Assembly: GCA_018820005.1 (NCBI GenBank)
Contig: JAHJOS010000511.1
Span: 1-46,254, forward strand
Source: Alphaproteobacteria bacterium
Lineage (GTDB): Bacteria; Pseudomonadota; Alphaproteobacteria; Rhizobiales; Devosiaceae
Direction of reading: 5' to 3'
DNA: 46,254 bases
Shown here: positions 12,388 to 42,783 of the stretch, piece by piece
How the letters are laid out: each line of letters begins with the position of its first letter
How positions within the stretch are numbered: position 1 is the first letter of the stretch
Made by a program: the position numbers and the translations under genes
The notes under the pieces: model-generated
What the model was told of the DNA's origin: nothing
What the model saw: only the letters and a program-made list of their open reading frames with translations
Database searches by the model: none

Positions 12388-12542
12388 CGACGTTCACCGA
12401 TGCGCTGTTGGGGCCCGACGCTGCGGTTTTGCGAGGATGGATGTGCGCTACCTGGCATATCTGCCAGCTAGTTTTCCGAGCCAAACCCCTTAGGCTGGTG
12501 ATGAGGCATCGCGCCTCATCAACGTGAAAGAGGGGTATCGCT

Positions 12543-12683
12543 ATGTTCAAGCTTCTTCAAAAGCGCATTTCCAAACGAAACGTGGCCGATCGGGCCGTCG
12601 TCATCAAGAATGCCAAAGAGAAAATCAACGGCGTGCCGGGCGGCGCGATCGTCGAGGGCAGCTATGGCGTCTGGTCCCGTTGA
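12543..12683 (+). CDS. Lasso peptide precursor A (46 aa; leader MFKLLQKRISKRNVADRAVVIKNAKEKIN, core GVPGGAIVEGSYGVWSR)
   Basis: Hand-translated ORF with GAGGGG RBS; Gly1 and Glu9 ring partners; stop overlaps the cyclase start (TGATG). Confidence 0.85.
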   Translation: MFKLLQKRISKRNVADRAVVIKNAKEKINGVPGGAIVEGSYGVWSR

Positions 12684-25130: not shown

Positions 25131-25409
25131 CTAGCCTGCAGCCGCGCCGGATACGGCGCGCCGATACAGCACGACCATCTCGTCGAGCAGCGATTCAGCG
25201 GCATACAGCGTAATCTTCAGCCGCAGGTCCTGGGGATAGAACCCATCAGGCCCGCCAATCTGCTGCAGCAGATCCTTGACCATGTCGGCACGCAGCTCGG
25301 CCTCAGCCAGCACAGGCTGTCGTGCAGGAACGGCCGCAGACAACGAGGGCGACGATGGTGATCTTGAACGGTAAGGGAAGGGTAGAAGCCTGGATTCGCA
25401 ATCAGCCAT
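25131..25409 (-). CDS. Small hypothetical protein downstream of the C4-like module
   Basis: GGAGG RBS before ATG (MADCESRL...); 92 aa, predicted helical. Confidence 0.55.
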   Translation of the reverse strand: MADCESRLLPFPYRSRSPSSPSLSAAVPARQPVLAEAELRADMVKDLLQQIGGPDGFYPQDLRLKITLYAAESLLDEMVVLYRRAVSGAAAG

Positions 25410-25544
25410 GGCACACCTCCGAAGAGGCGACACAAAACGAAGCTGATGAATCATGGTGGGGCGCGGGCGTAAAAAGGAAGTATCGCATGTTGCTGGTGCT
25501 CCTTGGTTCGATTAAGGAGCCGCCTCTGCCGTTGCTACGCGGTA

Positions 25545-25627
25545 ATGGAGGCGGACCGCACGGGGGTAGCAAACCGGGAACCAAGGGAACCGGCCAGGCC
25601 GAAGCCTGCCCCGCACGGCCCGCCATA
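25545..25627 (-). ncRNA. C4-type antisense RNA
   Basis: Closing stem ATGGCGGGCCGTGCGGG/CCCGTGCGGTCCGCC..CAT, CAGGC-TTCG-GCCTG hairpin, loop CCTTGGTT and linker TTGCTAC; complementary targets on both flanks. Confidence 0.75.
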
Positions 25628-25680
25628 GCAAAGCAGTAGCTTGGTGCTAAGCACCAACTACCAGCTATGACGCTGCCGCG

Positions 25681-25731
25681 CCTTGGTTTGCCAAGTTGCT
25701 ACACCCGGTCGTGGGATTTACCACGACCGGG
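25681..25731 (-). promoter_or_regulatory. Upstream C4 target (a1/b1-like) with hairpin
   Basis: Minus-strand GTAGCAAC and AACCAAGG are complementary to the C4 loops; hairpin CCCGGTCGTGG/CCACGACCGGG at 25704-25731. Confidence 0.65.
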
Positions 25732-25890
25732 ACAGTCTAGCGCGGGGGGTATGGGTAGGGCAAACAGACTGCGGCGTAGTTGCGAGGGCGACTTTCGACC
25801 CGTAGCAGCCGTTCACGAGGGGCGGATTTTCCAAAAAAACCCAGTGAGCACCAGCTAGCAGTTATGAACTGATAATCGAGATGTCGTTAC

Positions 25891-26118
25891 TTACGAGAAT
25901 GCCTTAGCAACCGAGTAATGAAGGTTAACGTATCCCTTATCCACATGCCTCCTATTTCCTCGGTGAAATTGATGAAGTATCACTTCTCCACGGTCATCCG
26001 TGTAGGTTACATAAAAAATTCCGATTATATATAGGAGCCGGAATAGCTCTCCGATATCATATTTAACGCCTTCTTCCTGCATTTTTCTATGAGCGGGCTC
26101 AAGCTCTTTTAGCGCCAT
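25891..26118 (-). pseudogene. AT-rich C-terminal fragment of an unidentified gene
   Basis: Frame stays open upstream into the end of the adjacent immunity gene without a convincing RBS; probably a truncation junction. Confidence 0.35.
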
Positions 26119-26143
26119 AGCAAGATCATACTTATGCCCCTGC

Positions 26144-26653
26144 TCAAAGGCTCGCCGACACCTGCCCGCAAATACACGAAAGAACGGGGGTTACACTTTG
26201 AGCTTTTCCGGACTCCAAAAGATCTTTTAGTTTGGATATAACAATACTTACAGAATCACCTTTATTTATCGGTGCTTCGCTGCTTTTGGCTGTATCTATC
26301 TCTGCGACTTGCGCATCCGCCATGGTTATAATGGCAATTTTTTCCTGATTCTTTCCCTTAACCAATATTTCGGTGGAGCCTATAATTTTTTCAAGCTCTT
26401 CTGGACATTCGTCAGTAGCATAAAAGTCGTTTGCAGGTACGAATTCGACCTTTTCGACTCCCTGGTCACTGAGGTGTTGACGCAGCTGGGTACTTGTCCA
26501 TCCTATTTGGACACCCTCTATTTCGCCGCTTTGCAAATCTTCTTGCTTGTAAAACAATTTCTTCGAAAATTTTCCCACCCCAGTTTCAGGGCAAGCTGCG
26601 GAGATGCTCGGCACTAATAGGGCGAGCAGGATTGCAATTTTATTTATCGCCAT
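26144..26653 (-). CDS. Putative immunity protein (exported) of orphan cassette 3
   Basis: Overlaps the end of the toxin tip; N-terminal signal peptide; AT-rich; 3' end possibly truncated. Confidence 0.65.
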
Positions 26654-27200
26654 GATTTTGGCCCCAGGCTCCAGGAATATTTGGTGCAGTCCCACCGGCA
26701 TTCTCGATTATGTTATCAGCCGCTGTATTGGAATTGTTGCCTGTTGGAGGAATTCGATAGGGCCCCTGAGAGTAGTTATTTCCCGAACCAGTTACTGCCT
26801 TATCAAAATCACTCTGAGTGGTTCCAGCAGGTGGCCAAATAATTCTGTTTGTATCATTAGCCCCGGGATTTTCAAATGCATTTCTGTCGTTATTGTAAGT
26901 ATCACTTTCGTTCTGGGTCATTGGCCCATTAGGTTTCACAGGGCCGGTGCCTCCGCCAGCTAGTGAGTACTGGCTATCAATCACTTTCTTCGAATTCCCG
27001 CACTTATCGAACTCCCAATGCCAAACGATAACGGCGCAATGAACTGGTTTAGCCATACCAGGAGGTAGCAATGAAAGCGGCCGACAAGTCATGGTGACTT
27101 CGAGTCCGTATTGGTCAATATATTTGAGTGGGTTCCCCATCGCATACCCGTAGGTATTCAGTCCCCCCTTAAGTCCAATCGGATCGCTTTCGACGTATCG
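26640..27200 (-). pseudogene. Orphan Rhs toxin tip, cassette 3
   Basis: [33 protein letters not shown], then a unique C-terminal domain with HC, Y..P..GNNSNT motifs; no proper start. Confidence 0.85.
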
Positions 27201-27312
27201 TCCGCCTACCTGGCGTCAAAGCTACAAACCCACACAGCCAAAGCCCCGCCCGCCTGCCTTTCAAGCCAGCACAAATCCACAAAGCAGCACGCTAACCAGC
27301 CACACCCCCCAA
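27175..27312 (-). repeat. Cassette leader repeat, copy A
   Basis: About 80% identical by eye alignment to 29202-29335; fused to the RYVESDPIG codons. Confidence 0.85.
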
Positions 27313-27334
27313 GGAAGGTGGACGAGCACCTTCC

Positions 27335-27616
27335 TCATGCAACCGCAAGCACAATGACGAAGCAAGACAGTGAAATGATGGAAGTTACTGCCGCTCGAAT
27401 GTAGGCCCTGACAATTTGACCCGCTTCAAGCGACATGCCTTTTGATTCCGGGTTCTTATACAGAATAAATTGCAAAACAACTGACGAGTAAAATTCATAC
27501 CCCTTTATGTTTGCAGAGCCGAGTGCGTCCTCTAATTCAGGCTTGATGCTTAAGCACTTAATCAGTCCGTATATCCCTGCACATAGCGCAGCGGTTAAAA
27601 TGGCACCTAAAATCAT
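27335..27616 (-). CDS. Putative membrane immunity protein of orphan cassette 2
   Basis: 93 aa with hydrophobic N- and C-terminal segments; starts 2 nt after the toxin stop. Confidence 0.65.
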   Translation of the reverse strand: MILGAILTAALCAGIYGLIKCLSIKPELEDALGSANIKGYEFYSSVVLQFILYKNPESKGMSLEAGQIVRAYIRAAVTSIISLSCFVIVLAVA

Positions 27617-27618
27617 GA

Positions 27619-28227
27619 TTACTCCAGTGGTATATTCAAGCCTACGCCAGATCCGGTGACTTTAGCACCGATAGCTGGTCCGACTCCTACACGGCCGGAA
27701 ACGCCATTTGTCCCTTGAGTGGAAGATACATCAACGCTGATTGGTCCATATATCGGCACAGATAATCCAGCAGACGTCCCTACTGTAGTCATTTTTGAAT
27801 TTACTGAGCCTGCCGATCCGGACACTCCAGCCGTTACGGAAACGCCTATGCCTATGCCCGGAGCAATCGAGAAACTCAGATTATTCTGGCTTGGTGAGAC
27901 ACTCAAATCGCCTGAAATAACTACCGGGACTGGCCCGAGTTGCCCCCAAACTCCAAGTTTAACGTCCACGTTAGATAAGCCTCGCGTCGAGCCTGGAAGC
28001 GCAGAAGCCAAGCCCGATGGGCAGTATCCTTCAGGATATGGGATGCCTCCGTTGCAGATCGTTTGCCCATACTCATCCTTCCAACATTTGCTTAAGCCAT
28101 AGGGATCTACAAAGATCAAAGGGTTTCCCCCAACATATCCATATGTGTTCAAGCCACCCGCCAGCCCGATCGGATCACTTTCGACATAGCGCCCCGTCTC
28201 GGGGTCGTAATCGCGGAAGTAGTTGTA
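27619..28227 (-). pseudogene. Orphan Rhs toxin tip, cassette 2
   Basis: [45 protein letters not shown], then a Gly/Val/Ser-rich beta-like domain. Confidence 0.85.
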
Positions 28228-28288
28228 AACTAATTCACATCAGCACCTCTGACTCCCGAGCTACCTGGTCGCATCGGCAGCACATTAC

Positions 28289-28312
28289 ACGCTGCGCTCA
28301 ACCCATCCTACG
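28289..28312 (-). repeat. Partial REP-like element
   Basis: Minus strand CGTAGGATGGGTTGAGCGCAGCG resembles GTAG-type pseudomonad REPs but lacks the second arm. Confidence 0.35.
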
Positions 28313-28314
28313 AG

Positions 28315-28731
28315 CTAATCAGCTAACTCAAACTCTAGGGAGTCAATTTGCTCTAATATAAATCCGTCGTCGTAATACAATTCCACATAAGGCTCTCCAC
28401 TCATCATTGTGCCCGCTGTGTCTATTGACTTGATTTTAAGCTTAGCTTCCCTTGAAATGGATATGCTGCGTGCGTGACAGTATATGTTTCCAGCACGCTG
28501 TGTTTTGCAGAACTGCTTTTGAGAATTGTCTGGGAGGATGTAATAGGCAGTTACCTCATCCCAGAACTCCTTCTCCCCAATCTTGAGCTCATCCAAAACC
28601 ATGACTTCAAACAGAGTTTTCTCTACGCAAGAAAACTCCGAGGGATCATCTGAGTTTTTCGAAAAGCACTCCACCCATAGTCTGTTGCTGTATGTGGCCC
28701 AGAGATTTATTTTTTTGGTTAGGACTAACAT
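28315..28731 (-). CDS. Putative cytoplasmic immunity protein of orphan cassette 1
   Basis: Acidic 138-aa protein starting 1 nt after the toxin stop. Confidence 0.7.
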   Translation of the reverse strand: MLVLTKKINLWATYSNRLWVECFSKNSDDPSEFSCVEKTLFEVMVLDELKIGEKEFWDEVTAYYILPDNSQKQFCKTQRAGNIYCHARSISISREAKLKIKSIDTAGTMMSGEPYVELYYDDGFILEQIDSLEFELAD

Positions 28732-28732
28732 A

Positions 28733-29227
28733 TTACTGCCCTCCGGTTCGCTGGGCGCCAGGGCGCGTTGCGTCAATTACATCCTGCCTTCTTACTCGCT
28801 CCGCATGGTTTGAAACGCCTGTTCTAACACTTCCATCAGGGAGAACATTGCGGAAGTTTGGGTGTGTGTGCTCTGCCATCCCAGCGTGAGGCTTTGAGGG
28901 GGGAGTATGGACCTCTTTGAATACGTCACCTTTCGCGTTGCGAACTTTAGTGATTCCTTGAGGCAGTGTCCCGCTAATAGTGCGAGGGACAGGACAGTAA
29001 GCACGTTCTCCTTGTGGGTTTAGACCGCCCCTGAGCCCCCCAATTGGCCCCACGCCTCCAGTTGGGTTACAGATCAACCCCTCAAAACCAGGCGTACAAA
29101 CATTGCCACCCAACCCATCATCAATCATCAATCCAAATGGATCGATAAAGTTAACGGGATTGCCTTCTACGTACCCGTAAGTGTTAAGCCCACCATTGAG
29201 CCCAATCGGATCACTTTCGACGTATCG
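28733..29227 (-). pseudogene. Orphan Rhs toxin tip, cassette 1 (His-rich, Ntox24-like putative nuclease)
   Basis: [33 protein letters not shown], then EVH..KPHAG..HTH..N..PDG. Confidence 0.8.
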
Positions 29228-29335
29228 TTCGCCTACGCGGCGTCGTAGCTACAATCCCACACAGCCCAAGCCCTACCTGCCTTCCACGCCCTCACAATCC
29301 AGCAAAGTGGCACTCTAACCAGCTACAACCCCCAA
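29202..29335 (-). repeat. Cassette leader repeat, copy B (element end downstream of the recombinase)
   Basis: Homologous to 27175-27312; contains GCTACAA twice. Confidence 0.85.
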
Positions 29336-29487
29336 TGCACTTTTTCGCTTAATTCCCGTGAACCGGACGTGCTTTTCAGCAAGCCGCGCGGGCGTGCAGG
29401 TGTGCGCGTGAGCGCACGGCAGTGCGAACGGGTGGCCATCAGCGGGCACCCAGGCAGCGGGAATGGTTGGGGGTGTGGCGAGGGCCG

Positions 29488-30516
29488 CTAGAGGTCTTCT
29501 TCGCTCTCTGCGCGCAGGGCGGCGAGCAAGGCGGCTTTATCCTGCAGCTTCGCCGGGTGGGTGGCGGTGTGGATTTCCTGCAGCTTGCGGATCGATACGT
29601 GGGTGTAGATCTGCGTGCTGTTCAGGTCGGCGTGGCCGAGCATGGCCTGGATGTACCGAATGTCCGCGCCATTCTCCAGCATGTGGGTGGCCATGGCGTG
29701 CCTGAGCAAGTGGCAGGAACCGGGCACGTTGATGCCGGCATGGCGCAGGAAGCGCTTCACCTTGTCGCCCACCTTGTTGTCGCGGAAGGGTTCGCCGTAA
29801 TCGTTGAGGAACAGGCACTGCTCGTTGATGTTGAGCAGCAGCTGCGGGCGCACATTATCCAGGTACGCCTGCAACCAGTGCCCTGCTCGCGCACCGAGCG
29901 GCAACAGACGGTCTTTGCCGCCCTTGCCATAGCGGACGAACAGGGTCATCTGGGCCAGCGAAATATCCGACAGCTGCAGAGCGCACAGCTCAGAGCGACG
30001 CAGGCCGGCGCTGTAGAACACTTCCAGAATGGCCCGATCACGCACACCGTAGGGCGTGCTCACGTCCGGCTGCAGCATCAGCTGCTCGATCTCGTCCAGC
30101 GTCAGTACCAATGGCAGGGAAGCCGTGTGCCGGGGCACAAACAGCTCCGAGGCGGGGTTGTAGAGCAGGTGATTTTCTTGCGTCAGCCATTTGAAGAACT
30201 GCCTAACGCTGGTGATGTAGTGGTTGCGGGTGCTGGGTGACAGCGCTTCGCCATTGGCCTGGCGGTAGTAGTACAGGTGCCTCTGGTAGCTCTCCAGAAT
30301 CGGCTTGGTCACGCTCTGCGGCCGGTCGATACCGAGCCCATCGCACCACCCAACAAAGCGCCGAATGTCGCTCTCGCGTCGGTGCAGGGTGCTGGGAGAG
30401 TAATTACGCACCTGCATGGTTTCGTTGTAGCGCAGCAGGTAGCCATAAAACCCGGTGTGCTCGATGGCCACCGGCAGGCGTTTGACCTTGATCGTACGTT
30501 TACGTTTGAGCGCCAT
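29488..30516 (-). CDS. XerC/XerD-like tyrosine recombinase
   Basis: Catalytic R (GLRRSE), K (GKGGK), HLLRH, LGH and Y (TQIYT) intact; N-terminal core-binding domain. Confidence 0.95.
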   Translation of the reverse strand: MALKRKRTIKVKRLPVAIEHTGFYGYLLRYNETMQVRNYSPSTLHRRESDIRRFVGWCDGLGIDRPQSVTKPILESYQRHLYYYRQANGEALSPSTRNHYITSVRQFFKWLTQENHLLYNPASELFVPRHTASLPLVLTLDEIEQLMLQPDVSTPYGVRDRAILEVFYSAGLRRSELCALQLSDISLAQMTLFVRYGKGGKDRLLPLGARAGHWLQAYLDNVRPQLLLNINEQCLFLNDYGEPFRDNKVGDKVKRFLRHAGINVPGSCHLLRHAMATHMLENGADIRYIQAMLGHADLNSTQIYTHVSIRKLQEIHTATHPAKLQDKAALLAALRAESEEDL

Positions 30517-30518
30517 GA

Positions 30519-33500
30519 TCACAACGCCTGATAGGTACTTTTCGGCGCACTCGCCGGCCATTCGTGGAAAGCCCCGGCGTGGCTGGCATCGGCCCTATTT
30601 GCAGGTGCCGCGATGACCCCGTTATGGCCCCGCGTTGGCCCCGCGAAGTGGGCCACCAGCCCCCGCGAAGTGCTCGTCATAGGCATGGGTTCGGACGCCT
30701 GGGCGTCGTGTGCGGGGTGGCTGATCAACTGCTCGACCGCCAGCAAACCCATCAAAAAGCTCCCACCGTCTTCGCCTTCGCCGCCGTACAACAGCTCGTA
30801 CTCGAACGATTGGCCACGCCCGCCGCGATGGGTCAGCAAGTACTCCATGTTGACCAAGCGCTGCACATGCACGCGCACCTGGGTTTCACTCCAGCCGCAG
30901 AGTTGGCGCACTTGCCGGCGGCTAAAGCGGAAGTCACGCTGCTCAATGCCCTGCGCTTTGGCCTCGGCGGTGACACGTTGCTTGATCAGGGTGAGCAACT
31001 GCCGGGTTTGCGGCGGCAGCTCGTCCAGGGTCTTGCCCAGCACCTCATGGGCCAGCCGATTGGCCAGGGCAATGTCCTCGCGCGTGGCCTCGATGTATTC
31101 CACCGGCTGACCGTGATGGTTCAGGGTTTTCACCGGGCGCTGGTACTGGTGCAGCAAGGCGATGCTGTCGATCAGCGTCAGGTACTTTTCATGGTCGCGG
31201 CGGGTGCGGGTCTTGTCGGCGAGAAAGGTCAGCTGATCGGCGAAGGGGTTGATCACGATCAGCGGTTTCAGCAGGCGCTGGGCGTTGCGGTGCAGCTGCA
31301 GAATGCGTTGTTTCTCCAGCTTGGTCTCCAGCCCCTGCAGGGTGCGTTTCACCCGCTGGATTTGATGGATGGCCTCGGTCTGCTCGCGCGATTCGTTCAC
31401 TGTGAGCACCAGGCAGCGGTTCATCAATTCTTCGTCGATGTCGATGGCGGTGGTGGTGAGGAACAACATCACTGGGCCTTCCACGCAGTAATCGCGGGTT
31501 ACCAGCTGGCCGCTGTTGTCGTCTTTGCCGGTGGAGGCAATCCGTACTTCGCCCTCGCTCTGCAGCAGCTTTAGCGCGTAGCTGGCGGTGTGTGCGCCTT
31601 CCTCTTCGGTGATGGCGAGGATCTTGTGTTTCAGCCGCGTCTCGCCCATGTAGAACAGGCTCTGCCCGGTCATGGCCGAATACTGCACGCGCTCGTCTTC
31701 GGGCATAAAGGCCAGCACCGCGTCCATCAACGATGACTTGCCGGCCGCGCTGGAACTCTGAATCACCACCGCTAGCGGTCGCTCCAGTTTGCGGCTGACG
31801 CCGGCGAGATAACCCACCAGCTTGTTGGTTTCCTCACCCACCACGCCGGCTGCTGTGAAGTCCGCCAGGATGCGTTCGGGCAAGACTGGATCGCGCAGCA
31901 GGGCCAGGGCAGCGGCGCGGGCCTCGCCGTCCATGCTGTCGACCGGGGATGACTCCACCGGACGCTGCTGGCGGAGCTGTTCCTGCTCCAGGGCCAGCAA
32001 CAGCTTGCCCAGGTCTTTCTTGATCACCTCGCCACTGACGCCCAGCTCGACACTGGCCTGGTTGGTAAACACCTGGCGCTGCTTGCTGCTGTACAGGTCA
32101 AGTTTGTCCATGTGGTAGTGCTCGTCGTTTTGCGCCAGCAGCTGGATTTTCAGTTGGTCGGCGCTGGCGTTCTTGTCCAGCCCGCGCACGCGGTACAGCC
32201 TGTCGCCAAACTGGGTGTACAGGCCATCGTCGCGGGCCTCTAGGGCAGCACCGGGTGCGGGCAAGGTCGGCATCGGCGTCGCCTGCGGGTCGATGGGGTT
32301 GTCCGGCATGGCCACGTCCGGCTCAGGCTGCGCAGTGACGGCGGCGACTTTAGCGGCTAAAGAAAAATCATCCGCCGCGGTGCTGATAACCGGGGCCGGC
32401 CCGCTGCCGTTGCCCATCCACTCAGCCTGGCGAAGCAACGCCGCCAGCGCCTTCTGCGCCGGCTGCATCTGGCAGGCGTACTGGTTGGCGTCCATGCCCT
32501 GGGGGAACAACACCCGGAACGCTTCGATGCCGTGCTGATTGAGCTGCTGCGCTACATCCTGAGCGGCCCGGTCGCCGGCCTCGTCGCGGTCGTAGGCAAT
32601 CAGCACCCGCTTTACGCCGATGCTGACCAAAGCCTGCAGCAGCTCGGCGGTGAAGCCGTTCACACCAAAACTCGCGGTCACCTGGCGAAAGCCTGCGCGC
32701 CAGAAGCTCAGCGCATCGATCAGCGACTCGCACAGAATCACCTCGCGGGCCGAAGCCAGCGCCGCCAGGTTGAACACCCCGACATGCGGCCCCGGCAGGT
32801 AGCTGTGTTTCGGCGTGCCTTCGCGCAGGTTATCCAGCAGCTTGCGGCCGTACACCTCGCCAATCACCCCGCTGGCGTCCATGCACGGAATCACCAGCGA
32901 GCCGTTGAAGTGTTCGTGCCCGGACTCGCGGTAGATGCCGATCTGTTGCAGGCGTGCACGCAACTCGGCACCGGTTTTACGGTTCTTCTGCGGCAGGCGC
33001 AGGCCCAGCGTGCGGTTGGCGTAGCCCAGTTTGAAGTGGCTGATCAGCTCGGCATCGTCCAGCCCGCGTTTCTGCAGATAGGCCAGGGCCTCGGGCGACT
33101 GCAGCAGGGTCTGGTGATAAAACTCGATTACCTCCTGCAGCAGTTGCTGTTCGTCACCCTGGACGGACACGGGCAGCGGCAGGCTCGGCACCGTGGATTT
33201 GCGCTGCGGCTCGGCAGCATCAGCGGCTAAAGAAAAAACCTGTCCGGTGTCGTTGGCCAGCCATTCCACTGCCGGGCGAAAGGCCAGGCTGCGGGTCTTC
33301 ATCACCCAATCGATTACCGAGCCGGCAGCACCACAACCGAAGCAGTGAAACAGGTTCGACTGCGGGCTGATCACGCACGACGGGGTTTTGTCGGCATGGA
33401 ACGGGCAGCACAGCGCAAAATCCTTGCCCTGCTTGGTCAGCACATGGCCCTGGCTCTCCACCAGCCGCAGCAGGGACACCTCGGCCTTGATCCGCTCGAT

Positions 33501-33524
33501 CACGTCATCAGCGATACGCGCCAT
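30519..33524 (-). CDS. CHC2 zinc finger-TOPRIM primase fused to a P-loop ATPase/helicase
   Basis: CPFH..CFGC zinc finger, CESLIDA and YDRD TOPRIM motifs, SSAAGKS Walker A; start MARIADD. Confidence 0.9.
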   Translation of the reverse strand: MARIADDVIERIKAEVSLLRLVESQGHVLTKQGKDFALCCPFHADKTPSCVISPQSNLFHCFGCGAAGSVIDWVMKTRSLAFRPAVEWLANDTGQVFSLAADAAEPQRKSTVPSLPLPVSVQGDEQQLLQEVIEFYHQTLLQSPEALAYLQKRGLDDAELISHFKLGYANRTLGLRLPQKNRKTGAELRARLQQIGIYRESGHEHFNGSLVIPCMDASGVIGEVYGRKLLDNLREGTPKHSYLPGPHVGVFNLAALASAREVILCESLIDALSFWRAGFRQVTASFGVNGFTAELLQALVSIGVKRVLIAYDRDEAGDRAAQDVAQQLNQHGIEAFRVLFPQGMDANQYACQMQPAQKALAALLRQAEWMGNGSGPAPVISTAADDFSLAAKVAAVTAQPEPDVAMPDNPIDPQATPMPTLPAPGAALEARDDGLYTQFGDRLYRVRGLDKNASADQLKIQLLAQNDEHYHMDKLDLYSSKQRQVFTNQASVELGVSGEVIKKDLGKLLLALEQEQLRQQRPVESSPVDSMDGEARAAALALLRDPVLPERILADFTAAGVVGEETNKLVGYLAGVSRKLERPLAVVIQSSSAAGKSSLMDAVLAFMPEDERVQYSAMTGQSLFYMGETRLKHKILAITEEEGAHTASYALKLLQSEGEVRIASTGKDDNSGQLVTRDYCVEGPVMLFLTTTAIDIDEELMNRCLVLTVNESREQTEAIHQIQRVKRTLQGLETKLEKQRILQLHRNAQRLLKPLIVINPFADQLTFLADKTRTRRDHEKYLTLIDSIALLHQYQRPVKTLNHHGQPVEYIEATREDIALANRLAHEVLGKTLDELPPQTRQLLTLIKQRVTAEAKAQGIEQRDFRFSRRQVRQLCGWSETQVRVHVQRLVNMEYLLTHRGGRGQSFEYELLYGGEGEDGGSFLMGLLAVEQLISHPAHDAQASEPMPMTSTSRGLVAHFAGPTRGHNGVIAAPANRADASHAGAFHEWPASAPKSTYQAL

Positions 33525-33581
33525 AAAACCCCCGGCTGGCAAAAACCTGTCAATAGCTTTGGAGTTAAAATAACCCCGTTG

Positions 33582-33610
33582 CAGAGTACTCTGTATCAGA
33601 GTACTGTCAA
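33582..33610 (-). promoter_or_regulatory. sigma70 promoter of the primase operon, overlapped by tandem palindromic operators
   Basis: TTGACA-16 bp-TACTCT on the minus strand; CAGAGTACTCTG (33582-33593) and CAGAGTACTGT (33597-33607). Confidence 0.7.
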
Positions 33611-33639
33611 CCGCTCGATCAAATCCAGGGGGTAGGGTT

Positions 33640-34029
33640 ATGCCATCAGCACTGCAGCGGATGAGCGCCATGACACCCGAAGACAAAGACTTCTATACAG
33701 ACTTGGGCCTGCGTATCGCCCAGGCCCGCAAAGCCCAAAACATCACTCAGCAGCAGATGGCCACGCTGCTCGGCATTTCCCAGCAAACCGTGGCGCATTA
33801 CGAAGTGGGTCGCTTGCGGATTTCCGTGGCCACGCTGCGGCAACTGGCCGAGGTGCTTAATTTCTCGGTCGATGAACTGGTGTACGGCATGGCGACTAAA
33901 GAAAAAGGCCGGCGCGGCCCCGACTCCAGGCTGCAACAGCAAATCGAGAAAGTTCGCCTGCTGCCCCGCACTAAGCAGCAGTTTGTGATGGACATGCTCG
34001 ATACGGTTATTCAGCAAACGGCGACATAA
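33640..34029 (+). CDS. XRE-family HTH repressor
   Basis: RIAQARKAQNITQQQMA..LGISQQTVAHYEVG HTH, KRGP-like tail; divergent from the primase; true start may be 33661 or 33670. Confidence 0.9.
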   Translation: MPSALQRMSAMTPEDKDFYTDLGLRIAQARKAQNITQQQMATLLGISQQTVAHYEVGRLRISVATLRQLAEVLNFSVDELVYGMATKEKGRRGPDSRLQQQIEKVRLLPRTKQQFVMDMLDTVIQQTAT

Positions 34030-34052
34030 AAACAGCCGCTGAAAGAAACAAC

Positions 34053-34078
34053 AAAAAGCCCAGCTATCAGCTGGGCTT
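34053..34078. terminator. Hairpin terminator after the XRE gene
   Basis: AAGCCCAGCT/AGCTGGGCTT stem; the T-tract is on the minus strand. Confidence 0.65.
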
Positions 34079-34324
34079 AGGGCGTTTATTTTTTAATTAA
34101 AAAGAACAGGCCCGCCGAAAATAACCAGATAAAGCCCTGCCAGATTCGCCCCCACCACCAAGATCGATCCAGGGTTAAGCCACGGCCTGGCGTTGCTTTT
34201 CTCTCTCCCCCGCAGCTCTGCTGCTGCCTGCCGACGACCTGCCAACCATCCTCAACAGCACCCCAAAAGCGTGGCTGATTGACGTCACCCTGAGCGCCAA
34301 TCGAAGCCGCCTGGTCAAAAAGTG

Positions 34325-34405
34325 GGCTGTAGCCTCGTGTGACTACAATCACCCCAGCATTTACGGGGCCTCCAGAGCATGTTGTAGCCGCGTGAGGCTA
34401 CAGCC
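34325..34405. repeat. Inverted pair of TGTAG-N10-CTACA palindromic boxes
   Basis: 34328-34347 and 34383-34402 are each palindromic and are inverted copies of one another. Confidence 0.75.
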
Positions 34406-34427
34406 GTTTTTTCACAAATAGACAATA

Positions 34428-34457
34428 AGCCAACATAATCAATGACTTATGCGCACC
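34428..34457 (-). other. dif/cer-like Xer recombination site
   Basis: Minus strand GGTGCGCATAA-GTCATTGA-TTATGTTGGCT versus E. coli dif GGTGCGCATAA-TGTATA-TTATGTTAAAT. Confidence 0.75.
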
Positions 34458-34590
34458 GGATAGGTGCGTATGGTGTATAGCAAAATCGCCGGGGCTTAAG
34501 GGCCAGCAGAAACCGCGAAAACACCCGGAGTTAAGGGGCAAACACCGGCCAGAGGGTCAACTTCTCCCCCAGCGGCTTGCCCGCTGGGAA

Positions 34591-34737
34591 AAGTAGCCAG
34601 GAAATAGCGCAAAAGTAGCCGTTAGATAGCAGCCCGGTAGCAATCAGAGAGCAACCAGATAGCCCAAAAGAAGCAATCCACTAAACCATGATGCCGAAAT
34701 GATGCGCCGATAACGCAGGGTGATGCACGGATAATGC
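34591..34737. repeat. Helically phased (11-bp) short repeat array
   Basis: TAGC at 34594, 34605, 34616, 34627, 34638 and 34660 (NAGC at 34649, 34671); RTRAYGC at 34688, 34699, 34710, 34720 and 34731. Confidence 0.8.
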
Positions 34738-34801
34738 AAAACGATTATCAGCCCCGTGTGAGCCGGATCGTGGAACTATTGAGCAATAGGCCGGCCGATA
34801 T

Positions 34802-34827
34802 AAAAACACCGGCGCGGAGCCGGTGTT
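34802..34827 (-). terminator. Intrinsic terminator after the Rhs immunity gene
   Basis: AACACCGGC/GCCGGTGTT stem ending in TTTTT on the minus strand. Confidence 0.75.
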
Positions 34828-34861
34828 GATGGGGGACACAAGACGTGGCTTGCCTTCAGAT

Positions 34862-35089
34862 TTAGTTGCCTTTTGCCAACGTATACGGCCGCATGGACTC
34901 ATGATCTTTATAAACAAACTGTTCGCAAATATCGACAAGTCCACCCATTGACTGCGCGACGCAAAGCTTCACCTCTAAAAACTCCTCTTCGCTTGTGTTC
35001 TCCTTAATATCTCTAAGAAGTTTTCCAAGAATGCTTATGCACTCTTGGGAGGCATTAAAAATAATTTCTGCTGATTTTTTATCCATCAC
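34862..35089 (-). CDS. Putative cognate immunity protein of the full-length Rhs
   Basis: 75-aa AT-rich helical ORF overlapping the Rhs stop codon. Confidence 0.75.
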   Translation of the reverse strand: MMDKKSAEIIFNASQECISILGKLLRDIKENTSEEEFLEVKLCVAQSMGGLVDICEQFVYKDHESMRPYTLAKGN

Positions 35090-37767
35090 TTAACTCCCAA
35101 GCAACCGCGAGAATCTAAACAATCTGAGTAGCACTTCTGAAAATTCATAGACTGTAGGTCTGTATCGGGAAGACCAGCGCTACATAGCGCCGCACACTCG
35201 GTTCTTGCGCGCTTGCAGCGGTCTGGATCGTCCTCATCTGGGGTGCAAGCCTCAACTGCTTTAGTAATTAGCGGCTGCAACCAAGGGTTGATATACCTGT
35301 CAGTTAAAATGAAGCTACCAACACCGACAGCCCCCACCGCCGCTGCCGCACAGGCACTACCACCAGTTGCAGCGCAGATAGAGCCAGCGCTTGGCAATGT
35401 TACCTTTAATACCTCGCCCACCGTGGCTACCTGCAGCCCCATCGGATCGGTGTAGCGCACCGGGTTGCCATGGACATACCCGTAGGTATTCAGACCACCA
35501 GCCAACCCAATCGGATCGCTTTCGACGTAGCGCCCCGTCTCGGGGTCATAATCGCGGAAGTAGTTGTAATGCAGCCCGCTTTCGTCGTCGTAGTACTGAC
35601 CGGGGAACCGGAGGTTGATGGTGGCAGTTCCATCAGCCGCACCGACGCCGAAGGCATCGGATTTCCATCGCCAGACTTCATCACCGGACTGGTTGGTGGC
35701 TAGCCTTGGGGTGTTGAGGTGGTCGGCATGCAGATAGAACGCGTTGCTGCTGGCGATGCCACCCTCAGCATCGTAGGTCAGGGTGATGCCACCTAAAGGC
35801 AGGCTGTCCAGCCACAGAAAGAACTGGCTGCTAAGCTTGGCGCCAGTGGGGCTGTACCGGGTTTCGCCAAGGAGCTGGCCGTTCGGGCCGTAAAGAAAGG
35901 TTGTTGTCGCTGTGCCGGTGATCTTGTTGGTTCGCTGGCCCAATGCGTTGTAGCGGTATTGCGCGATCACATTGCTGCCGATGTTCACCTGAGCCAATCG
36001 GCCCTGAGCATCGTACTCAAAGTTTCGGTTATTGCTGTATTGCGTCAGGCTGCCAGTGGCATCGGTGGTTACGGCCAGTCCGTCGATGCTTACAAGCCGA
36101 TTGCTGTCGCTCGCATAGCTGAGGTCGGTGACCACGCTGCCCATGGGCTGGCCTTCGCTCAGGCCGATGAGCGCTTTGCTGGTCCGGTTGCCCACCGCGT
36201 CGTAGCCATACTGTAAGCGCTGGTTGCCTTCATCTTCACGGATCAGCCGATCGAGCGCGTCATAACCGTAGAGCAGATCACCGAACAGGCCGCTCTCCAG
36301 GCTCTGGATATTGCTGTTGGCGTCGTAGCCATAATTGGCCTGCCAAGGTCCGACGCTTTGCTGGGTGAGTCGATAGTCCTGATCATAGGTGCGTGAAAGA
36401 TTGATGCCGTTGGCCCAGGTAAGACTCTTCAGCGGCCCGAACGGCAGATAGCTCAGGTCGCTGGCAAAGGCAGCAGGCTGTTCATCGATAACGATGTCGA
36501 CCTCTCCAACCTGCCCGGCAGCATTGCGTTGGTATTGCACGGCAAAGCCTGCCGGGTAATCGATGCGCGTGAGCTGACCAGCGCCATCGTAGCTGTACTG
36601 CAGCGTGTCATAGATATCGCTACCCACCACCTCGAGTGAGCGAAGCTGCTGCACCAGGTTGCCGCGTGCGTCGTAGCGATAGCCAAGCACTCCACTGGCA
36701 TCTTGCACGGTGGTCAGCCGGCCAACCCCGTGATTGCCGTCGGCGGTCATGTCGTAGTGGTACTGAACGTTGAGCGCCGGGTTGGCGGGGTACGTTTTAC
36801 TGGTCAGACGATTCAGGGCGTCGTAGCTGTAGCTCGTGACCACGCCGCGGGCGTCGGTCTTGCGGATCACGTTGCCGGCCGCGTCATGTATAAATGTGGC
36901 CGTGCCGCTGTCTGGACTGACTAGTTGAGTAAGATTACCTACCCCATCGTACCGGTACTGGGTGGTAACGCCTCTCGGGTCGCTTACCTGGGTGAGGTTA
37001 TCCTGAGCATCATAACCAAGGGCAGTAACGCCATTGAGCGGGTCGGTGCTGGTGACCAAGCGATCCAGTGCATCGTAGCTGTTGGTGGTGCTGTGTTGCT
37101 TGGGGGTGGTACCAACCGCGAGATTATCGTTCAGGTCGTAGCCGTACTGCCTGGTCTGGCCTTGTGCACCGACGGCGCGCAGCAGGCGTCCGAGCTCGTC
37201 ATATACCCAGGTCTGCTGCTGGGTCAGTGCACCGGTGGCATCATTGAGACGCTGAGCGGTGCGGTTGCCCATGAGGTCGTAGTCATATTCAACCTTCTCG
37301 CCCAAACTGTTGGTAACCGCTTTCAGACGACGGGCACCGTCCCAGGTGTACTGCAGCCAGCTCCCGTCACCGCGGGTCACCTTAGCGATCTGCCCAATGG
37401 CGTCGTGCTCGAAGCTCGTGCTGCTGCCGGCAGTGCTTGTGGAACTCAGCCAGCCCTGGGGCGTGTAGGTCAGGGTGGTCGTCACACCGTTGGCATCTAT
37501 CAGGCTCTGCGGGTTGCCGTAGGTGTCGAAGTTCGAGAGCTGTGTGACATGGCCAAGGGCATTGGCTACCTGTGTCAGGTGGCCTTGGGCGTCATAGGTG
37601 TAGGTGGTGACATCTGACACGTCGCTGCGAGGGCCGTCGGCCGTCTCGATCAGTCCGAGGCTGTTGTAGGTGTAGCTCCAGCTGCGCTCAAGCGCTTGGA
37701 CGCTTGGCACACCCAGTGCCGTCGCGAGCGTTAGCGCAAGTAGACTTATGCGATGCGATGATTTCAT
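35086..37767 (-). CDS. Rhs protein, C-terminal half (own signal peptide, YD repeats, Rhs core, Cys-rich toxin tip)
   Basis: MKSSHRISLLALTLATALGVPSVQA signal peptide; YD repeats; [35 protein letters not shown]. Confidence 0.93.
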   Translation of the reverse strand: MKSSHRISLLALTLATALGVPSVQALERSWSYTYNSLGLIETADGPRSDVSDVTTYTYDAQGHLTQVANALGHVTQLSNFDTYGNPQSLIDANGVTTTLTYTPQGWLSSTSTAGSSTSFEHDAIGQIAKVTRGDGSWLQYTWDGARRLKAVTNSLGEKVEYDYDLMGNRTAQRLNDATGALTQQQTWVYDELGRLLRAVGAQGQTRQYGYDLNDNLAVGTTPKQHSTTNSYDALDRLVTSTDPLNGVTALGYDAQDNLTQVSDPRGVTTQYRYDGVGNLTQLVSPDSGTATFIHDAAGNVIRKTDARGVVTSYSYDALNRLTSKTYPANPALNVQYHYDMTADGNHGVGRLTTVQDASGVLGYRYDARGNLVQQLRSLEVVGSDIYDTLQYSYDGAGQLTRIDYPAGFAVQYQRNAAGQVGEVDIVIDEQPAAFASDLSYLPFGPLKSLTWANGINLSRTYDQDYRLTQQSVGPWQANYGYDANSNIQSLESGLFGDLLYGYDALDRLIREDEGNQRLQYGYDAVGNRTSKALIGLSEGQPMGSVVTDLSYASDSNRLVSIDGLAVTTDATGSLTQYSNNRNFEYDAQGRLAQVNIGSNVIAQYRYNALGQRTNKITGTATTTFLYGPNGQLLGETRYSPTGAKLSSQFFLWLDSLPLGGITLTYDAEGGIASSNAFYLHADHLNTPRLATNQSGDEVWRWKSDAFGVGAADGTATINLRFPGQYYDDESGLHYNYFRDYDPETGRYVESDPIGLAGGLNTYGYVHGNPVRYTDPMGLQVATVGEVLKVTLPSAGSICAATGGSACAAAAVGAVGVGSFILTDRYINPWLQPLITKAVEACTPDEDDPDRCKRARTECAALCSAGLPDTDLQSMNFQKCYSDCLDSRGCLGVK

Positions 37768-37784
37768 TGGTCAGTTCCTTCTGA

Positions 37785-39419
37785 TCAGCGTTCGGTAAGG
37801 GTCTGGCTAAGCGGATTTCCGTGTGCGTCGTAATTGAACTGCACGATGCGCTCGGGCTCGGTGATGGTGACGGGTCTGAAGAGCGTTGGGTGCCACTCGG
37901 TGATGATCGTCCGGGCCTGTGGCGTACCGGCTGCTTCGGTCCGACTGATCTCTAGGCCGCGATCGTTGTAGATGAATGTCGTCTGATTACCCTTGTTGTC
38001 GGTGCGGGTCTTGATTAAACCGCGGCTGTCATAGGTGAACGTGGAATTGCTGCTAGGACAGTTGGCCGATGCTGCTCCTGAGAGCGAGGTGATGCGCTTG
38101 GCGCCCGCGATGGTTTGGAAGCTATAGGTGGCTTTCTTGCCGAGTGGATTGGTCAGTGTTGTCGAGTTGCTACCGTAGGCGAACTGGTAGCGGTCGGCAC
38201 CACCGGCATGCTCGCTCTTGGTAGCACGTCCCTGTGCATCGTAAGTCCAGGTGGCGTAACGCACACCGCGCTCGTCGGTAATGCCGGTCAGCCAGCCGCC
38301 TTCACGTGCGTCTTCGTAATGGTAGGTGCGAGAAAGGGCCTGCCCATTCTGGGTTCGCGTCGCCTTGGTCAGACGGCCGGCCGTACTGTAGGTGTAGCTC
38401 ACCTGCAGGTCGTCAACCATCAGCGTGGCCAACCGTTGAGCTGCGTTGAACGTCAGCGTCATCGCATGGCCGAGTGAGTCAGTGACCACGATGGCGTTGG
38501 CGCTGTACGAAAGAATCTCGTATGTGCCGTTCGCACGGTCGATACGGGTCAGTTGTCCTGCGCTGTCGAAATGCAGGTGCTCGTTTCGCGGGGAGTCGTA
38601 GCGCCAACCTTGAGTCGTCTTTTCAAGACGCCCTAGCTCTTTGGGTGATGCGGCCACGGTAGTACCGCTTACGCTGAACAGGCTTTGGCGTCCATCGGCG
38701 TCAATGAGTAGCGCCTTGGTGGGAGAAAGCTTGAGTCGCGCGGCGTAAGTATGCGTCCAACTGGTCGTTCTGCTGTTGTAGTAGCGTATGAAGCGCATTT
38801 CGCTACCGGAACGACCGGAATAGTCTATTTCAGTCTGGAATTTGTTTCCGTAAGCCACGTCGACCGGGTTACCAGCGCTCAGGCTTGGGGAACCCTGTCC
38901 AGCAAGTAAGGGTGGCGCTGACGGTACAGGACAGGCACCAGGCAGGTCCGGTGCACCAACCCCCGGAACGTCGGGGCAGAGCAGCTCCGCGGGTCGGTTG
39001 TAAAAGACCGGGCCGGCAAAGACTCCATAATGCGTTTGCTTGGCAACGGCGAAGTTTCTCGCGGAGACGCCATCGACCGAGCCGGTGAAGTTGTCGTGGA
39101 GCAGGATTGCGTGTGTCTTGCAGTCGTTGGTGAACACCCGCTTCATGTTTGCATTGCTCGATTTCAGCGTTTCGAGCATCTGGTCCGGTGTGTACCACGC
39201 GCTACTATCAAGCCACTTGATCACCTTGCCTCCGGAACATTGCAAGTTCGCGATCTGGTACAGGTACTGACCCGAGCCATCTGGTGGCTGAGATGCGAAG
39301 ACTTCTGTTCCGAAATAGCTAACGCCACCTGTCGTGCAGCTAGCGGCGGCGAGGGCGGATTGGTTTAGAAATGCGGTGCTAACAAGGGCGAGAGCAAGCG
39401 TGCTGGAGAAACGATCCAT
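37785..39419 (-). CDS. Rhs protein, N-terminal half (signal peptide, DUF6531-like domain, YD repeats)
   Basis: Signal peptide ending ALA; GNPVDVAYGNK..FIRYYNS..WTHTY; YD repeats; no Rhs core. Confidence 0.88.
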   Translation of the reverse strand: MDRFSSTLALALVSTAFLNQSALAAASCTTGGVSYFGTEVFASQPPDGSGQYLYQIANLQCSGGKVIKWLDSSAWYTPDQMLETLKSSNANMKRVFTNDCKTHAILLHDNFTGSVDGVSARNFAVAKQTHYGVFAGPVFYNRPAELLCPDVPGVGAPDLPGACPVPSAPPLLAGQGSPSLSAGNPVDVAYGNKFQTEIDYSGRSGSEMRFIRYYNSRTTSWTHTYAARLKLSPTKALLIDADGRQSLFSVSGTTVAASPKELGRLEKTTQGWRYDSPRNEHLHFDSAGQLTRIDRANGTYEILSYSANAIVVTDSLGHAMTLTFNAAQRLATLMVDDLQVSYTYSTAGRLTKATRTQNGQALSRTYHYEDAREGGWLTGITDERGVRYATWTYDAQGRATKSEHAGGADRYQFAYGSNSTTLTNPLGKKATYSFQTIAGAKRITSLSGAASANCPSSNSTFTYDSRGLIKTRTDNKGNQTTFIYNDRGLEISRTEAAGTPQARTIITEWHPTLFRPVTITEPERIVQFNYDAHGNPLSQTLTER

Positions 39420-39534
39420 GTTCCAAAATCCTGCGTCAGGGATGATGCAGGTAGGCTAGATTCGGGTTCGCAAAGTGTCAGCCGCTGCTTTGTGGCCGAG
39501 TCCGCAAAACTGACGACCGCTTGTCGGGTTTGTT

Positions 39535-40131
39535 CTAAAGCGGGTTTTTGTTAATGCGAACTAGAGGCTCTAAACGTAGCTCCGTTGCACTTTCGGAGCT
39601 CGTAGGGCGGAGTTTCTTCAGATAAAAATCCGTAAGGTAGGCATACCGTACGACCTGTCCTACTGGCTTAGTTGGAGCTTTCATTGCGTCGGGAAAATAA
39701 AGTGGATCAAGCGATCCGTCGCGCGACAGGACGACATAGCTGGGTTGCACCTCTTCCAGAATCGCACCAGACACGATCTGGTCACCTAGTTTGAAGAGGC
39801 GAGGGGGACGGCCCGAAACCATAATGATGGCCGAAGATCGTTCGCTCATCGGGTGCACGAAGCTACCCACTAATGTCATCGGAAGCGGAGATCGTTCGTG
39901 AACAGGCTGTGTCTGCTGTCGATGTTCGCCGAACAGATTTTCCCGATACTTGACAGGCGCTTTCGTGGGCTCAAGCACTGCCTGTTCGCGGGCAGGCTCT
40001 TTGAGCAGAACCTCGCTAAGTTGCTGCCATTGTCTGTAAATATTCACGCTCACTCCCATCGCTACGACAAGCGACACCGCCCACGGCAGGGCGCGATGTC
40101 TGAGGATCGTGAGAATCAAGCGAGCTTTCAT
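39535..40131 (-). CDS. Type II secretion GspC/XcpP-like protein
   Basis: N-terminal TM helix, then LPMTLVG..SSAII..FKLGDQI..ILEEVQPSYVVLSRDG..LYF (HR domain); start could be 40164. Confidence 0.75.
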   Translation of the reverse strand: MKARLILTILRHRALPWAVSLVVAMGVSVNIYRQWQQLSEVLLKEPAREQAVLEPTKAPVKYRENLFGEHRQQTQPVHERSPLPMTLVGSFVHPMSERSSAIIMVSGRPPRLFKLGDQIVSGAILEEVQPSYVVLSRDGSLDPLYFPDAMKAPTKPVGQVVRYAYLTDFYLKKLRPTSSESATELRLEPLVRINKNPL

Positions 40132-40513
40132 GTGGGGCTGCAATCCAAATACTGCACAGCTCATTTTTCACGATTCTGAGAAAAGGTCGAACAGTTTGCG
40201 GCCCAGACTTGATGTGGTGCGCAAAGCAGTGGCGGCATAGAGCCGTGCTGCCCTTTCTGCTTTCCTACCAGAAAAAATTTGCGAACACGTCGTGGAGCGA
40301 CCAGGCGCGGATGGTACCGGCGCGGCAGGGCGTCGCTGACCAAGCGTAGGGCAAGAGGGCTGTATCGCTTTGGAACAGCCCGACTCGCGTCCAGACGAAT
40401 ACCCCGCATTACGGTCGCCGAGCCAACTGCGTCAGCCGACCTCAGGGAGGGCATGATGGACGCCCGAGGGGACGAGACGGCCGTCGGGAGACGCCCTTGC
40501 GCTTCACGCGCAT

Positions 40514-42379: not shown

Positions 42380-42399
42380 GCGGTCTTCCTTGGCCGAGT

Positions 42400-42783
42400 C
42401 TAGAGCTGGTCGTATTTCTTGCTCGTGTTGCGCGCTTTGTCCACCGGGTACTTCTCGCCATTGCGCTTGAGCTTGTCCTGCACGGCCTCATCCAGATCGA
42501 CACCCAGCACATCAGCCAGACGAACCAGGTACATCAGGACATCGGCCAACTCGTCTCGCACCGCCTGGGCGGTTTCAGATGTCTGCGCCGCCGTGATCGA
42601 CTGCTCTTCAGTCATCCACTGGAAGATCTCGGAGAGCTCACCGGTTTCCCCGGTCAGGGCCATGGTCAGGTTCTTGGGCGAATGAAACTGCGCCCAGTTG
42701 CGCGCATCGGCAAAGGCCTCGAGGGCTTCGGCAAGTCGCGTCGTGTCAACGAGCGCAGGGGAGAGCGGGGCATCAGTGGACAC
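42400..42783 (-). CDS. MazG-like nucleotide pyrophosphohydrolase
   Basis: RNWAQFHSPKNL..ETGELSEIFQW..DELADV..KYP; GTG start with AAGGA RBS. Confidence 0.9.
   Translation of the reverse strand: MSTDAPLSPALVDTTRLAEALEAFADARNWAQFHSPKNLTMALTGETGELSEIFQWMTEEQSITAAQTSETAQAVRDELADVLMYLVRLADVLGVDLDEAVQDKLKRNGEKYPVDKARNTSKKYDQL

What the first reader, a model, noticed from the sequence alone, without database searches (positions are those of the whole stretch)
26144..35532. Integrative element that appears to swap Rhs toxin tips and archive old ones
Seen: full-length rhs with tip and immunity gene, then a replication/recombination module, then three tip/immunity cassettes. The module's distal end is fused exactly at the RYVESDPIG codons, so element plus current tip is flanked by Rhs-core direct repeats. 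Inference: a circular form carrying a tip/immunity pair recombines into the Rhs core, installs a new warhead and pushes the previous tip downstream, like an integron for toxins. Similar primase-XerC modules are known near polymorphic toxin loci, but I know of no demonstrated mechanism.
Basis: partly seen in the sequence, partly recalled or inferred. Interest (0 to 1): 0.85.

Follow-up and report, generated by a model that had tools for sequence, protein, structure and literature searches.

The report
Mobile element swapping Rhs toxin tips
A 6.3-kb mobile element carrying one predicted toxin tip and its antidote gene is joined into the conserved core of an Rhs toxin gene, here and in dozens of other bacteria, and it likely inserts with its own recombinase at a short fixed site, installing a new toxin and pushing the old one downstream.

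Summary
The 6,305-bp unit (tip, immunity, repressor, primase–MCM-like helicase, PRK01287 tyrosine recombinase, right end) lies between two copies of one 11-bp Rhs-core sequence; the cores are otherwise only 66–73% alike. In relatives, an Rhs core remnant follows the recombinase in 46 of 56 GTDB copies and 21 of 41 metagenome copies (8 more by eye). Near-identical modules carry unrelated tips. The join position tracks the recombinase tree. A single-contig chromosome holds a tandem dimer of the predicted circle. One metagenome contig has the whole unit, tips included, inside a cytochrome c gene with only 5 shared bases at the joins. That points to short-site integration rather than RecA. A dif/cer-like host Xer site and a polar motif suggest a replicating circle. 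Not shown: excision, replication, transfer route, toxicity of these tips. Related modules also sit in CdiA loci. The gene module and the circle idea are in print separately; ten searches found no account of this mechanism, and one relevant 2026 paper was unreadable. The scan noted a probably related element's polar motif before, on other DNA.

The parts
37785..39419 (-). Upstream Rhs-associated gene (DUF6531 + YD repeats); chromosomal, outside the mobile unit
   Evidence: Pfam
35086..37767 (-). rhs gene, 893 aa; target of the element; its last about 147 codons (from the join) belong to the mobile unit
   Evidence: join
35519..35529 (-). Left join (inferred attL): 11 bases identical to the right join, in the Y-V-E-S codons
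35086..35436 (-). Active tip, 116 aa after the DPxG motif (predicted toxin)
   Evidence: no family hit
34862..35089 (-). Predicted immunity gene of the active tip, 75 aa
   Evidence: position and low GC
34428..34457 (-). dif/cer-like host XerCD site (XerC-type arm, 8-bp centre, XerD-type arm)
   Evidence: same kind of site in 31 of 74 and 18 of 57 related copies
34318..34412 (.). Inverted repeat, 31-nt arms, beside the Xer-like site; role unknown
33640..34029 (+). Cro/cI-type HTH repressor, divergent from the primase
30519..33524 (-). Primase-helicase: CHC2 zinc finger, DnaG/Toprim, C-terminal MCM-like AAA+ fold; holds three copies of a strand-specific 8-bp motif (33230, 32360, 30925)
   Evidence: fold shown on an orthologue
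29488..30519 (-). Tyrosine recombinase of subfamily PRK01287/NF002331, catalytic motifs present
   Evidence: 405.8 bits against cut-off 371; motifs
29225..29487 (-). Non-coding right end of the element, with the conserved end motif at 29231-29247
   Evidence: 81% over 285 nt to independent contig L097; motif
29214..29224 (-). Right join (inferred attR)
28315..29224 (-). Cassette 1: clipped core, 132-aa tip (28733-29131), predicted immunity gene (28315-28731); likely the previous active tip
27335..28228 (-). Cassette 2: core remnant starting at the Y-N-Y codons, 158-aa tip, predicted immunity gene (27335-27616)
27198..27312 (-). Decayed right end of an earlier element copy
   Evidence: 80% over 169 bp to 29172-29335
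26144..27197 (-). Cassette 3: core clipped at the same 11 bases, 154-aa tip, predicted immunity gene (26144-26653)

Best explanation
The 6.3-kb unit is a mobile element joined into the Rhs core at a fixed short site, and it likely moves as a circle that its own tyrosine recombinase integrates by one crossover, so that its tip becomes the active toxin and the old tip and immunity gene are pushed downstream. Shown by sequence: the unit's boundaries; that it moves as a block with its tips; that the joins need only about 5-11 shared bases; that the join position is fixed within a recombinase lineage. Inferred: the circle's join is right end + clipped core + tip; the element's recombinase makes the crossover; the primase-MCM-like helicase replicates the circle; host XerCD resolves multimers at the dif/cer-like site; later deletion of the module, fixed on the core side and loose on the other, leaves compact immunity-to-clipped-core arrays. 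Unknown: how the circle passes between cells and how new tips are first loaded.
For: (1) Off-target insertion L166: the whole unit, two tips included (7,448 bp), splits a cytochrome c gene whose halves are contiguous in 8HDD_B (left ends at residue 128, right covers 125-425); the two joins share 5 bases. (2) G901: rhs::tipA-module-end|tipA-module-end|tipB, 99.83% over 5,889 bp starting inside the core; also L015 and, in a TpsA locus, L087. (3) Nine pairs of sister modules: 7 identical over the 300 bases before the join (2 offset in this ungapped test), cores 67-91% alike after it, tips 15-23% alike. (4) Core remnant within 2.1 kb after the recombinase in 46 of 56 GTDB copies, window included, and 21 of 41 metagenome copies, 8 more by eye; all 105 and 61 cores co-oriented with the recombinase. 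(5) G900: 12 of 13 non-full-length cores are clipped at profile position 42-43 and lie in the module arrays, whereas module-free arrays of G902 keep whole cores in 245-558-aa frames. (6) Join position follows the recombinase tree: 9 changes, minimum 7, shuffled mean 37.6 (labels set by eye, quick tree, kin share labels). (7) End motif in 13 of 33 held-out joins against 34 of 4,519 background windows. (8) Xer-like site in 18 of 57 held-out copies; 7 hits in the 3.69-Mb own genome. (9) MCM-like fold. (10) 4 of 5 loop contigs hold one module with one tip.
Against: No excision, circle or recombinase activity was observed, and no read evidence exists for this copy. Sister cores stay identical for 11-53 bases past the profile start, and L049 shares 91 identical bases between active core and remnant, longer than 75% identity predicts; short homology or branch migration may help. 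The sharpest proof of a short site is one metagenome contig; L155 shows only the right join. Loops cannot tell a free circle from a tandem repeat, and L033 is a loop with no tip. All 24 plasmid records with the recombinase are 92 kb or larger, with no phage record for the primase, so no free small replicon is on record. No clean inverted-repeat binding site was found at the join. 6 of 56 GTDB copies and 6 of 41 metagenome copies show no core downstream. No transfer genes lie in the unit. Only about 9 of 82 tips of relatives hit known toxin families.
Confidence: 0.75

Rival explanations
1. RecA recombination between Rhs cores (the Jackson 2009 model) does the swap; the module only replicates the circle and its recombinase resolves multimers.
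For: Identical runs of 11-53 bases after sister joins; 91 identical bases in L049; module-free arrays with long cores exist (G902).
Against: 5 shared bases at the L166 joins; window cores 66-73% alike; remnants clipped at one position rather than of variable length; clip position tracks the recombinase tree.
Confidence: 0.1
2. The module alone is a selfish element that lands at Rhs cores; tips are bystanders and are not carried.
For: L033 is a loop of module without tip; the element is rare and patchy (0 of 108 genus relatives; 2 of 400 in the order).
Against: Tips travelled with the module into a cytochrome gene; the repeated unit in G901 and L015 includes the tip; landing alone would cut the tip off the rhs gene, yet the upstream gene is intact with a tip.
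Confidence: 0.07
3. Host XerCD acting at the dif/cer-like site does excision and integration, as for IMEX elements; the element's recombinase is accessory.
For: The site is strongly enriched (31 of 74; 18 of 57) and directly repeated in tandem arrays, where XerCD could release one unit.
Against: The site lies inside the unit, not at its joins (about 1 kb from the left join here); it was not found in over half of the copies; the joins carry no Xer arms.
Confidence: 0.06

Closest known systems
Rhs C-terminal displacement via episomal circles (Jackson et al. 2009, PMC2935791; passages read)
   Same: Same outcome and same predicted intermediate: a circle with core piece and tip, one crossover, old tip shunted downstream.
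   Different: [quoted passage not shown] Here the circle has its own recombinase and replication gene, and cores are clipped at fixed points.
SymE-cHTH-Prim-Hel neighbourhoods (Kawano et al. 2007, PMC1891008; passages and section 13 read, figure not seen)
   Same: DnaG primase fused to an MCM-like AAA+ helicase, Cro/cI HTH, near RHS and haemagglutinin genes.
   Different: Noted there as context for SymE; no recombinase, join or tip exchange in the passages read. No SymE ORF was found in this window.
Recombinases beside toxin/immunity arrays: Zhang 2012 (PMC3482391, one passage), Steele 2017 (PMC5727410, passages), Ruhe 2016 (PMC4927057, passages), rAID (described in PMC12247911, passages)
   Same: XerC/D-like or integrase genes next to orphan toxin/immunity arrays, suggested to build them.
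   Different: Proximity and conjecture only; rAID arrays hold immunity genes in Bacteroidales; none of the passages defines a replicating unit joined into the toxin gene.
Integrons (recalled)
   Same: Tyrosine recombinase next to an array built by successive insertions of circles.
   Different: Recombinase is below the IntI cut-off; it travels on the circle; the insertion site is inside a coding gene and makes a protein fusion.
P4/PICI-type satellites and integrative elements that restore the 3' end of their target gene (recalled)
   Same: Small integrase + repressor + primase unit that supplies a replacement 3' end for its target.
   Different: The supplied end is a different toxin domain each time, and no packaging or conjugation genes are present.

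Membership tests
PRK01287/NF002331 recombinase subfamily | Score above curated cut-off | tested here: met
   405.8 against 371 bits
Housekeeping XerC/XerD | Score above equivalog cut-off | tested here: not met
   TIGR02224 247 against 335; TIGR02225 258 against 330
Integron | IntI-family integrase | tested here: not met
   TIGR02249 128 against 265
Integron | attC hairpin sites between cassettes | not tested
   Cassette borders are clipped Rhs cores; no attC model was run
rAID | Tyrosine recombinase upstream of co-oriented short low-GC genes | tested here: met
   (GC 0.46-0.49; the published 41% threshold is not reached in this 62% GC genome)
rAID | Array of orphan immunity genes, Bacteroidales | tested here: not met
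   Cassettes are tip plus immunity pairs; named relatives are mostly Pseudomonadota
Jackson-type homologous C-terminal displacement | Displaced tips with core remnants downstream of an intact rhs | tested here: met
Jackson-type homologous C-terminal displacement | Core remnants of variable length and near-identical to the active core | tested here: not met
   66-73% identity; fixed clip in 12 of 13 G900 remnants
SymE-cHTH-Prim-Hel module (Kawano 2007) | DnaG primase fused to MCM-like helicase, beside a Cro/cI HTH | tested here: met
   fold of an orthologue matches MCM, E 4e-9
SymE-cHTH-Prim-Hel module (Kawano 2007) | SymE gene | tested here: inconclusive
   No SymE hit for the two ORFs scanned in 34030-34944; shorter frames were not scanned; a SymE-like frame was recognised only by eye in L033
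IMEX (XerCD-dependent integration at dif) | Element bounded by dif-like sites | tested here: not met
   One internal site; joins are in the Rhs core
P4/PICI-type phage satellite | Integrase, repressor and primase in a small unit | tested here: met
P4/PICI-type phage satellite | Packaging or interference genes; induction by a helper phage | not testable with these tools
   No such ORF in the 6.3-kb unit; helper dependence needs experiment

The most novel reading that the evidence does not exclude
This is a member of an undescribed, widespread family of self-replicating integrative elements that act as dedicated vectors for polymorphic toxin tips: each lineage's recombinase targets a short DNA site in a conserved part of Rhs, CdiA or other toxin genes, swaps the warhead by in-frame fusion and archives old immunity genes. 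They would be the episomal tip reservoir predicted in 2009.
Probability: 0.6. Interest if true: 0.92.

Novelty: new variant of a known kind. Interest (0 to 1): 0.86.

Why it matters
How polymorphic toxins exchange their C-terminal domains between strains has been an open question since the circle model of 2009, which lacked an enzyme and a carrier. This family supplies both and makes the question testable with one gene and two short sites. It also explains a class of orphan arrays clipped at fixed codons. A recombinase that makes in-frame gene fusions at short, lineage-specific sites may be useful as a tool. The right-end motif gives a way to mine new antibacterial toxin/immunity pairs: 86 tips fell into 67 clusters, most without a known family.

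Tried and rejected
No RNA holder was listed for the stretch; no read-level evidence was obtained, so circles and expression of this copy stay open. Empty-site comparison failed: no genus relative holds this rhs beyond matches of 68 bp or less (8 of 108) or the primase (0 of 108). A class-wide family search found 0 of 400, but scored at most 4 candidates per genome, so it is not used for prevalence. Viral contigs gave nothing relevant (3 weak or partial hits). Sequence searches of the helicase domain against PDB found nothing; only the fold search did. My first Xer-site scan looked upstream of the primase and found 5 of 61, because relatives carry the site downstream of the recombinase; the relaxed pattern was then set on that set, so only 18 of 57 is a held-out test. 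The first end-motif count (22 of 44) included hits inside the core and is not used as evidence. The idea that the element's left end is a fixed site at the immunity stop codon rests on two arrays (L034, L048) and was not established. Reading the end motif as the two arms of the crossover site was rejected because sister modules stay identical beyond it. Papers checked without a relevant passage: PMC10210955, PMC5131962, PMC4428218, PMC3150448.
Full report
Observation. The layout is as described. An 893-aa rhs gene is followed by a 75-aa gene, a divergent HTH repressor, a 1,001-aa CHC2-Toprim primase and a tyrosine recombinase, then about 260 bp of non-coding DNA that runs straight into the R-Y-V-E-S-D-P-I-G codons of a clipped Rhs core, and three tip/small-gene cassettes. 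The recombinase passes the cut-off of subfamily PRK01287 but not those of housekeeping XerC, XerD or integron integrase; its catalytic motifs are present. The helicase half of an orthologous primase folds like MCM (mean pLDDT 78, best Foldseek E 4e-9). The two joins share 11 bases and are 6,305 bp apart; the four cores are only 66-73% alike over their last 96 bases. Cassette 3 carries a decayed second right end joined at the same bases, so an element of this lineage was here before. The module is single copy in this 79%-complete genome. Window tips have no family hit, so their toxicity is inferred; about 9 of 82 tips of relatives match toxin families such as Tox-GHH, WHH, ribonuclease, ART, Tlde1, TseH and Tox-WTIP.

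The family. The recombinase found 294 relative-encoding stretches in GTDB, of which 70 loci were kept; an alignment of relatives found at least 549 in metagenomes, 77 loci kept. It is patchy: the primase was found in 0 of 108 genus relatives and 2 of 400 genomes of the order. Among copies with at least 1.5 kb downstream, an Rhs core remnant lies within 2.1 kb in 46 of 56 (window included; 4 farther, 6 none) and in 21 of 41. Of the other 20, by eye 8 have short remnants, 3 a core farther on, 2 are off-target joins, 1 ends at the contig edge and 6 show nothing. All 105 and 61 cores found are on the recombinase's strand. Plasmid-borne relatives sit between a full-length toxin gene and small downstream genes in CdiA/TpsA, FG-GAP and invasin-domain loci; in L088 and L087 the DNA after the module joins a conserved part of the upstream toxin gene.

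The join is fixed and short. A conserved motif ends the element just before the core: 13 of 33 held-out joins against 34 of 4,519 background windows. Of 32 distinct motif copies, 18 were followed by an Rhs end motif automatically and 10 more by Rhs core on inspection; 1 led into another toxin-like tip, 2 were off target, 1 was chance; the opposite strand gave 2. The position in the core differs among lineages (about seven positions) and follows the recombinase tree: 9 changes, minimum 7, shuffled mean 37.6, on 63 rows (quick tree, labels by eye, L018 missing, kin share labels). The nearest relative, L097 (92% identical recombinase), has the same right end (81% over 285 nt) and the same join with another tip. 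In G900, 12 of 13 non-full-length cores start at profile position 42-43 and all 12 lie in the module arrays; module-free arrays in G902 keep whole cores in frames of 245-558 aa, which is the classical pattern and serves as a control.

The unit moves with its tips. In L166 the complete unit, with two tip/immunity pairs, a toxin-antitoxin-like pair, repressor, primase, recombinase and right end (7,448 bp), interrupts a cytochrome c gene. The left half ends at residue 128 of 8HDD_B and is fused in frame to a clipped Rhs core; the right half resumes after the element end and covers 125-425; the joins share 5 bases. This is one metagenome contig and was not checked with reads. L155 shows a right end joined to a similar-reading site inside an Rhs body. 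In G901 the active tip recurs behind the first module, 99.83% over 5,889 bp from inside the core, followed by a second module and another tip: the join predicted for the circle, held in a chromosome. Five of 35 whole contigs have exact terminal repeats of 77-131 bases; four hold one module with one tip, one (L033) has no tip; 1 of 77 metagenome loci is also a loop. Loops do not separate circles from tandem copies. Sister modules carry unrelated tips: in 7 of 9 pairs the 300 bases before the join are identical, cores are 67-91% alike after it, and tips 15-23%.

Signs of an episome. A dif/cer-like site (recognised from memory of the E. coli sites) lies at 34428-34457. Such a site lies within 1.3 kb after the recombinase in 31 of 74 copies (pattern set on these) and 18 of 57 held-out copies, against 7 hits in the 3.69-Mb genome. 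An 8-bp motif is strand-biased in the module: 3 copies in the window's primase gene, 161 against 21 in 66 related modules, agreeing with an earlier scan note. Against a common free form: all 24 plasmid records are 92 kb or larger, there is no phage record, and the unit has no transfer genes.

Mechanism. Most likely (0.75) a circle made of right end, clipped core, tip, immunity gene and module is integrated by the element's recombinase at a short site in the toxin gene. The new tip is fused in frame and the old pair is kept downstream. Repeats of this build tandem arrays. Compact arrays in which a clipped core follows an immunity stop within about 30 bases (L007/L008, L041, L048, L067), including a module-free locus in G901, are best read as later loss of the module with the core side fixed; this step is inferred. 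Counter-evidence: identity runs of 11-53 bases past sister joins and 91 bases in L049 leave room for homology-assisted exchange; no binding-site symmetry was found; nothing was shown experimentally.

What is known. Jackson 2009 (passages) predicted episomal tip circles moved by homologous recombination and wrote that no integrase was known with Rhs. Kawano 2007 (passages and one section) shows the primase-helicase/HTH/SymE neighbourhood near RHS and haemagglutinin genes. Zhang 2012 (one passage; last 58,000 characters and Additional File 1 not seen), Steele 2017 and Ruhe 2016 note recombinases near orphan arrays and only suggest a role. rAID is taken from PMC12247911 (passages); Ross 2019 was not held. 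Martinkus 2026 was seen only as a citation saying that Xer-dependent systems lie next to poly-immunity arrays in Xenorhabdus and Photorhabdus and could overlap with this. Ten full-text searches found no description of the join, the unit or the mechanism; most subscription journals are not covered. Integron, IMEX and satellite features are recalled.

Verdict. Real, and supported by independent genomes. The kind (an integrative element that supplies a new 3' end to its target gene) is known; a family that uses this to swap toxin domains appears undescribed. Interest 0.86.

Noticed in passing
window 35086-40164: Both Rhs genes begin with hydrophobic, signal-peptide-like stretches (by eye) and lie next to a T2SS protein C gene (Pfam), suggesting export by Sec/type II secretion rather than type VI.
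   Followed up: no
window 40514-42819: Schlafen group 3 helicase gene beside a MazG-like gene; looks like a defence pair next to the toxin locus.
   Followed up: no
window 12524-16484: Three overlapping ORFs (536, 225, 559 aa) that by their first residues recall a lasso-peptide-type cluster with an exporter; recalled, not scanned.
   Followed up: no
window 27335-28228: Cassette 2's core starts at the Y-N-Y codons, the join position of a different element lineage, so it may have come with another element; a REP-like remnant (recalled) precedes it.
   Followed up: partly
window 25131-26143: DNA after the last cassette has no match in fetched loci and holds two unexplained ORFs (75 and 107 aa).
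   Followed up: partly
window 34452-34675: The element's left region is 76% identical over 225 bp to the same region of TpsA-linked modules in L087, linking Rhs and CdiA versions.
   Followed up: partly
L070:7350-11000, L071:2800-6450, L147: An AAA ATPase gene, with a large partner gene in L070 and L071, follows the recombinase as extra cargo; L053 and L161 have other large cargo genes there.
   Followed up: no
L182-L183 (G902:C1:4561000-4576000): More distant modules are followed by tip-like frames sharing a short motif but no Rhs core remnant, suggesting a join downstream of the DPxG motif.
   Followed up: partly
L033: A 6.4-kb loop of module with toxin-antitoxin genes and a SymE-like frame but no right-end motif or tip.
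   Followed up: partly
L046:4380-9072: One of two sister primase genes is interrupted by a 4.7-kb insertion.
   Followed up: no
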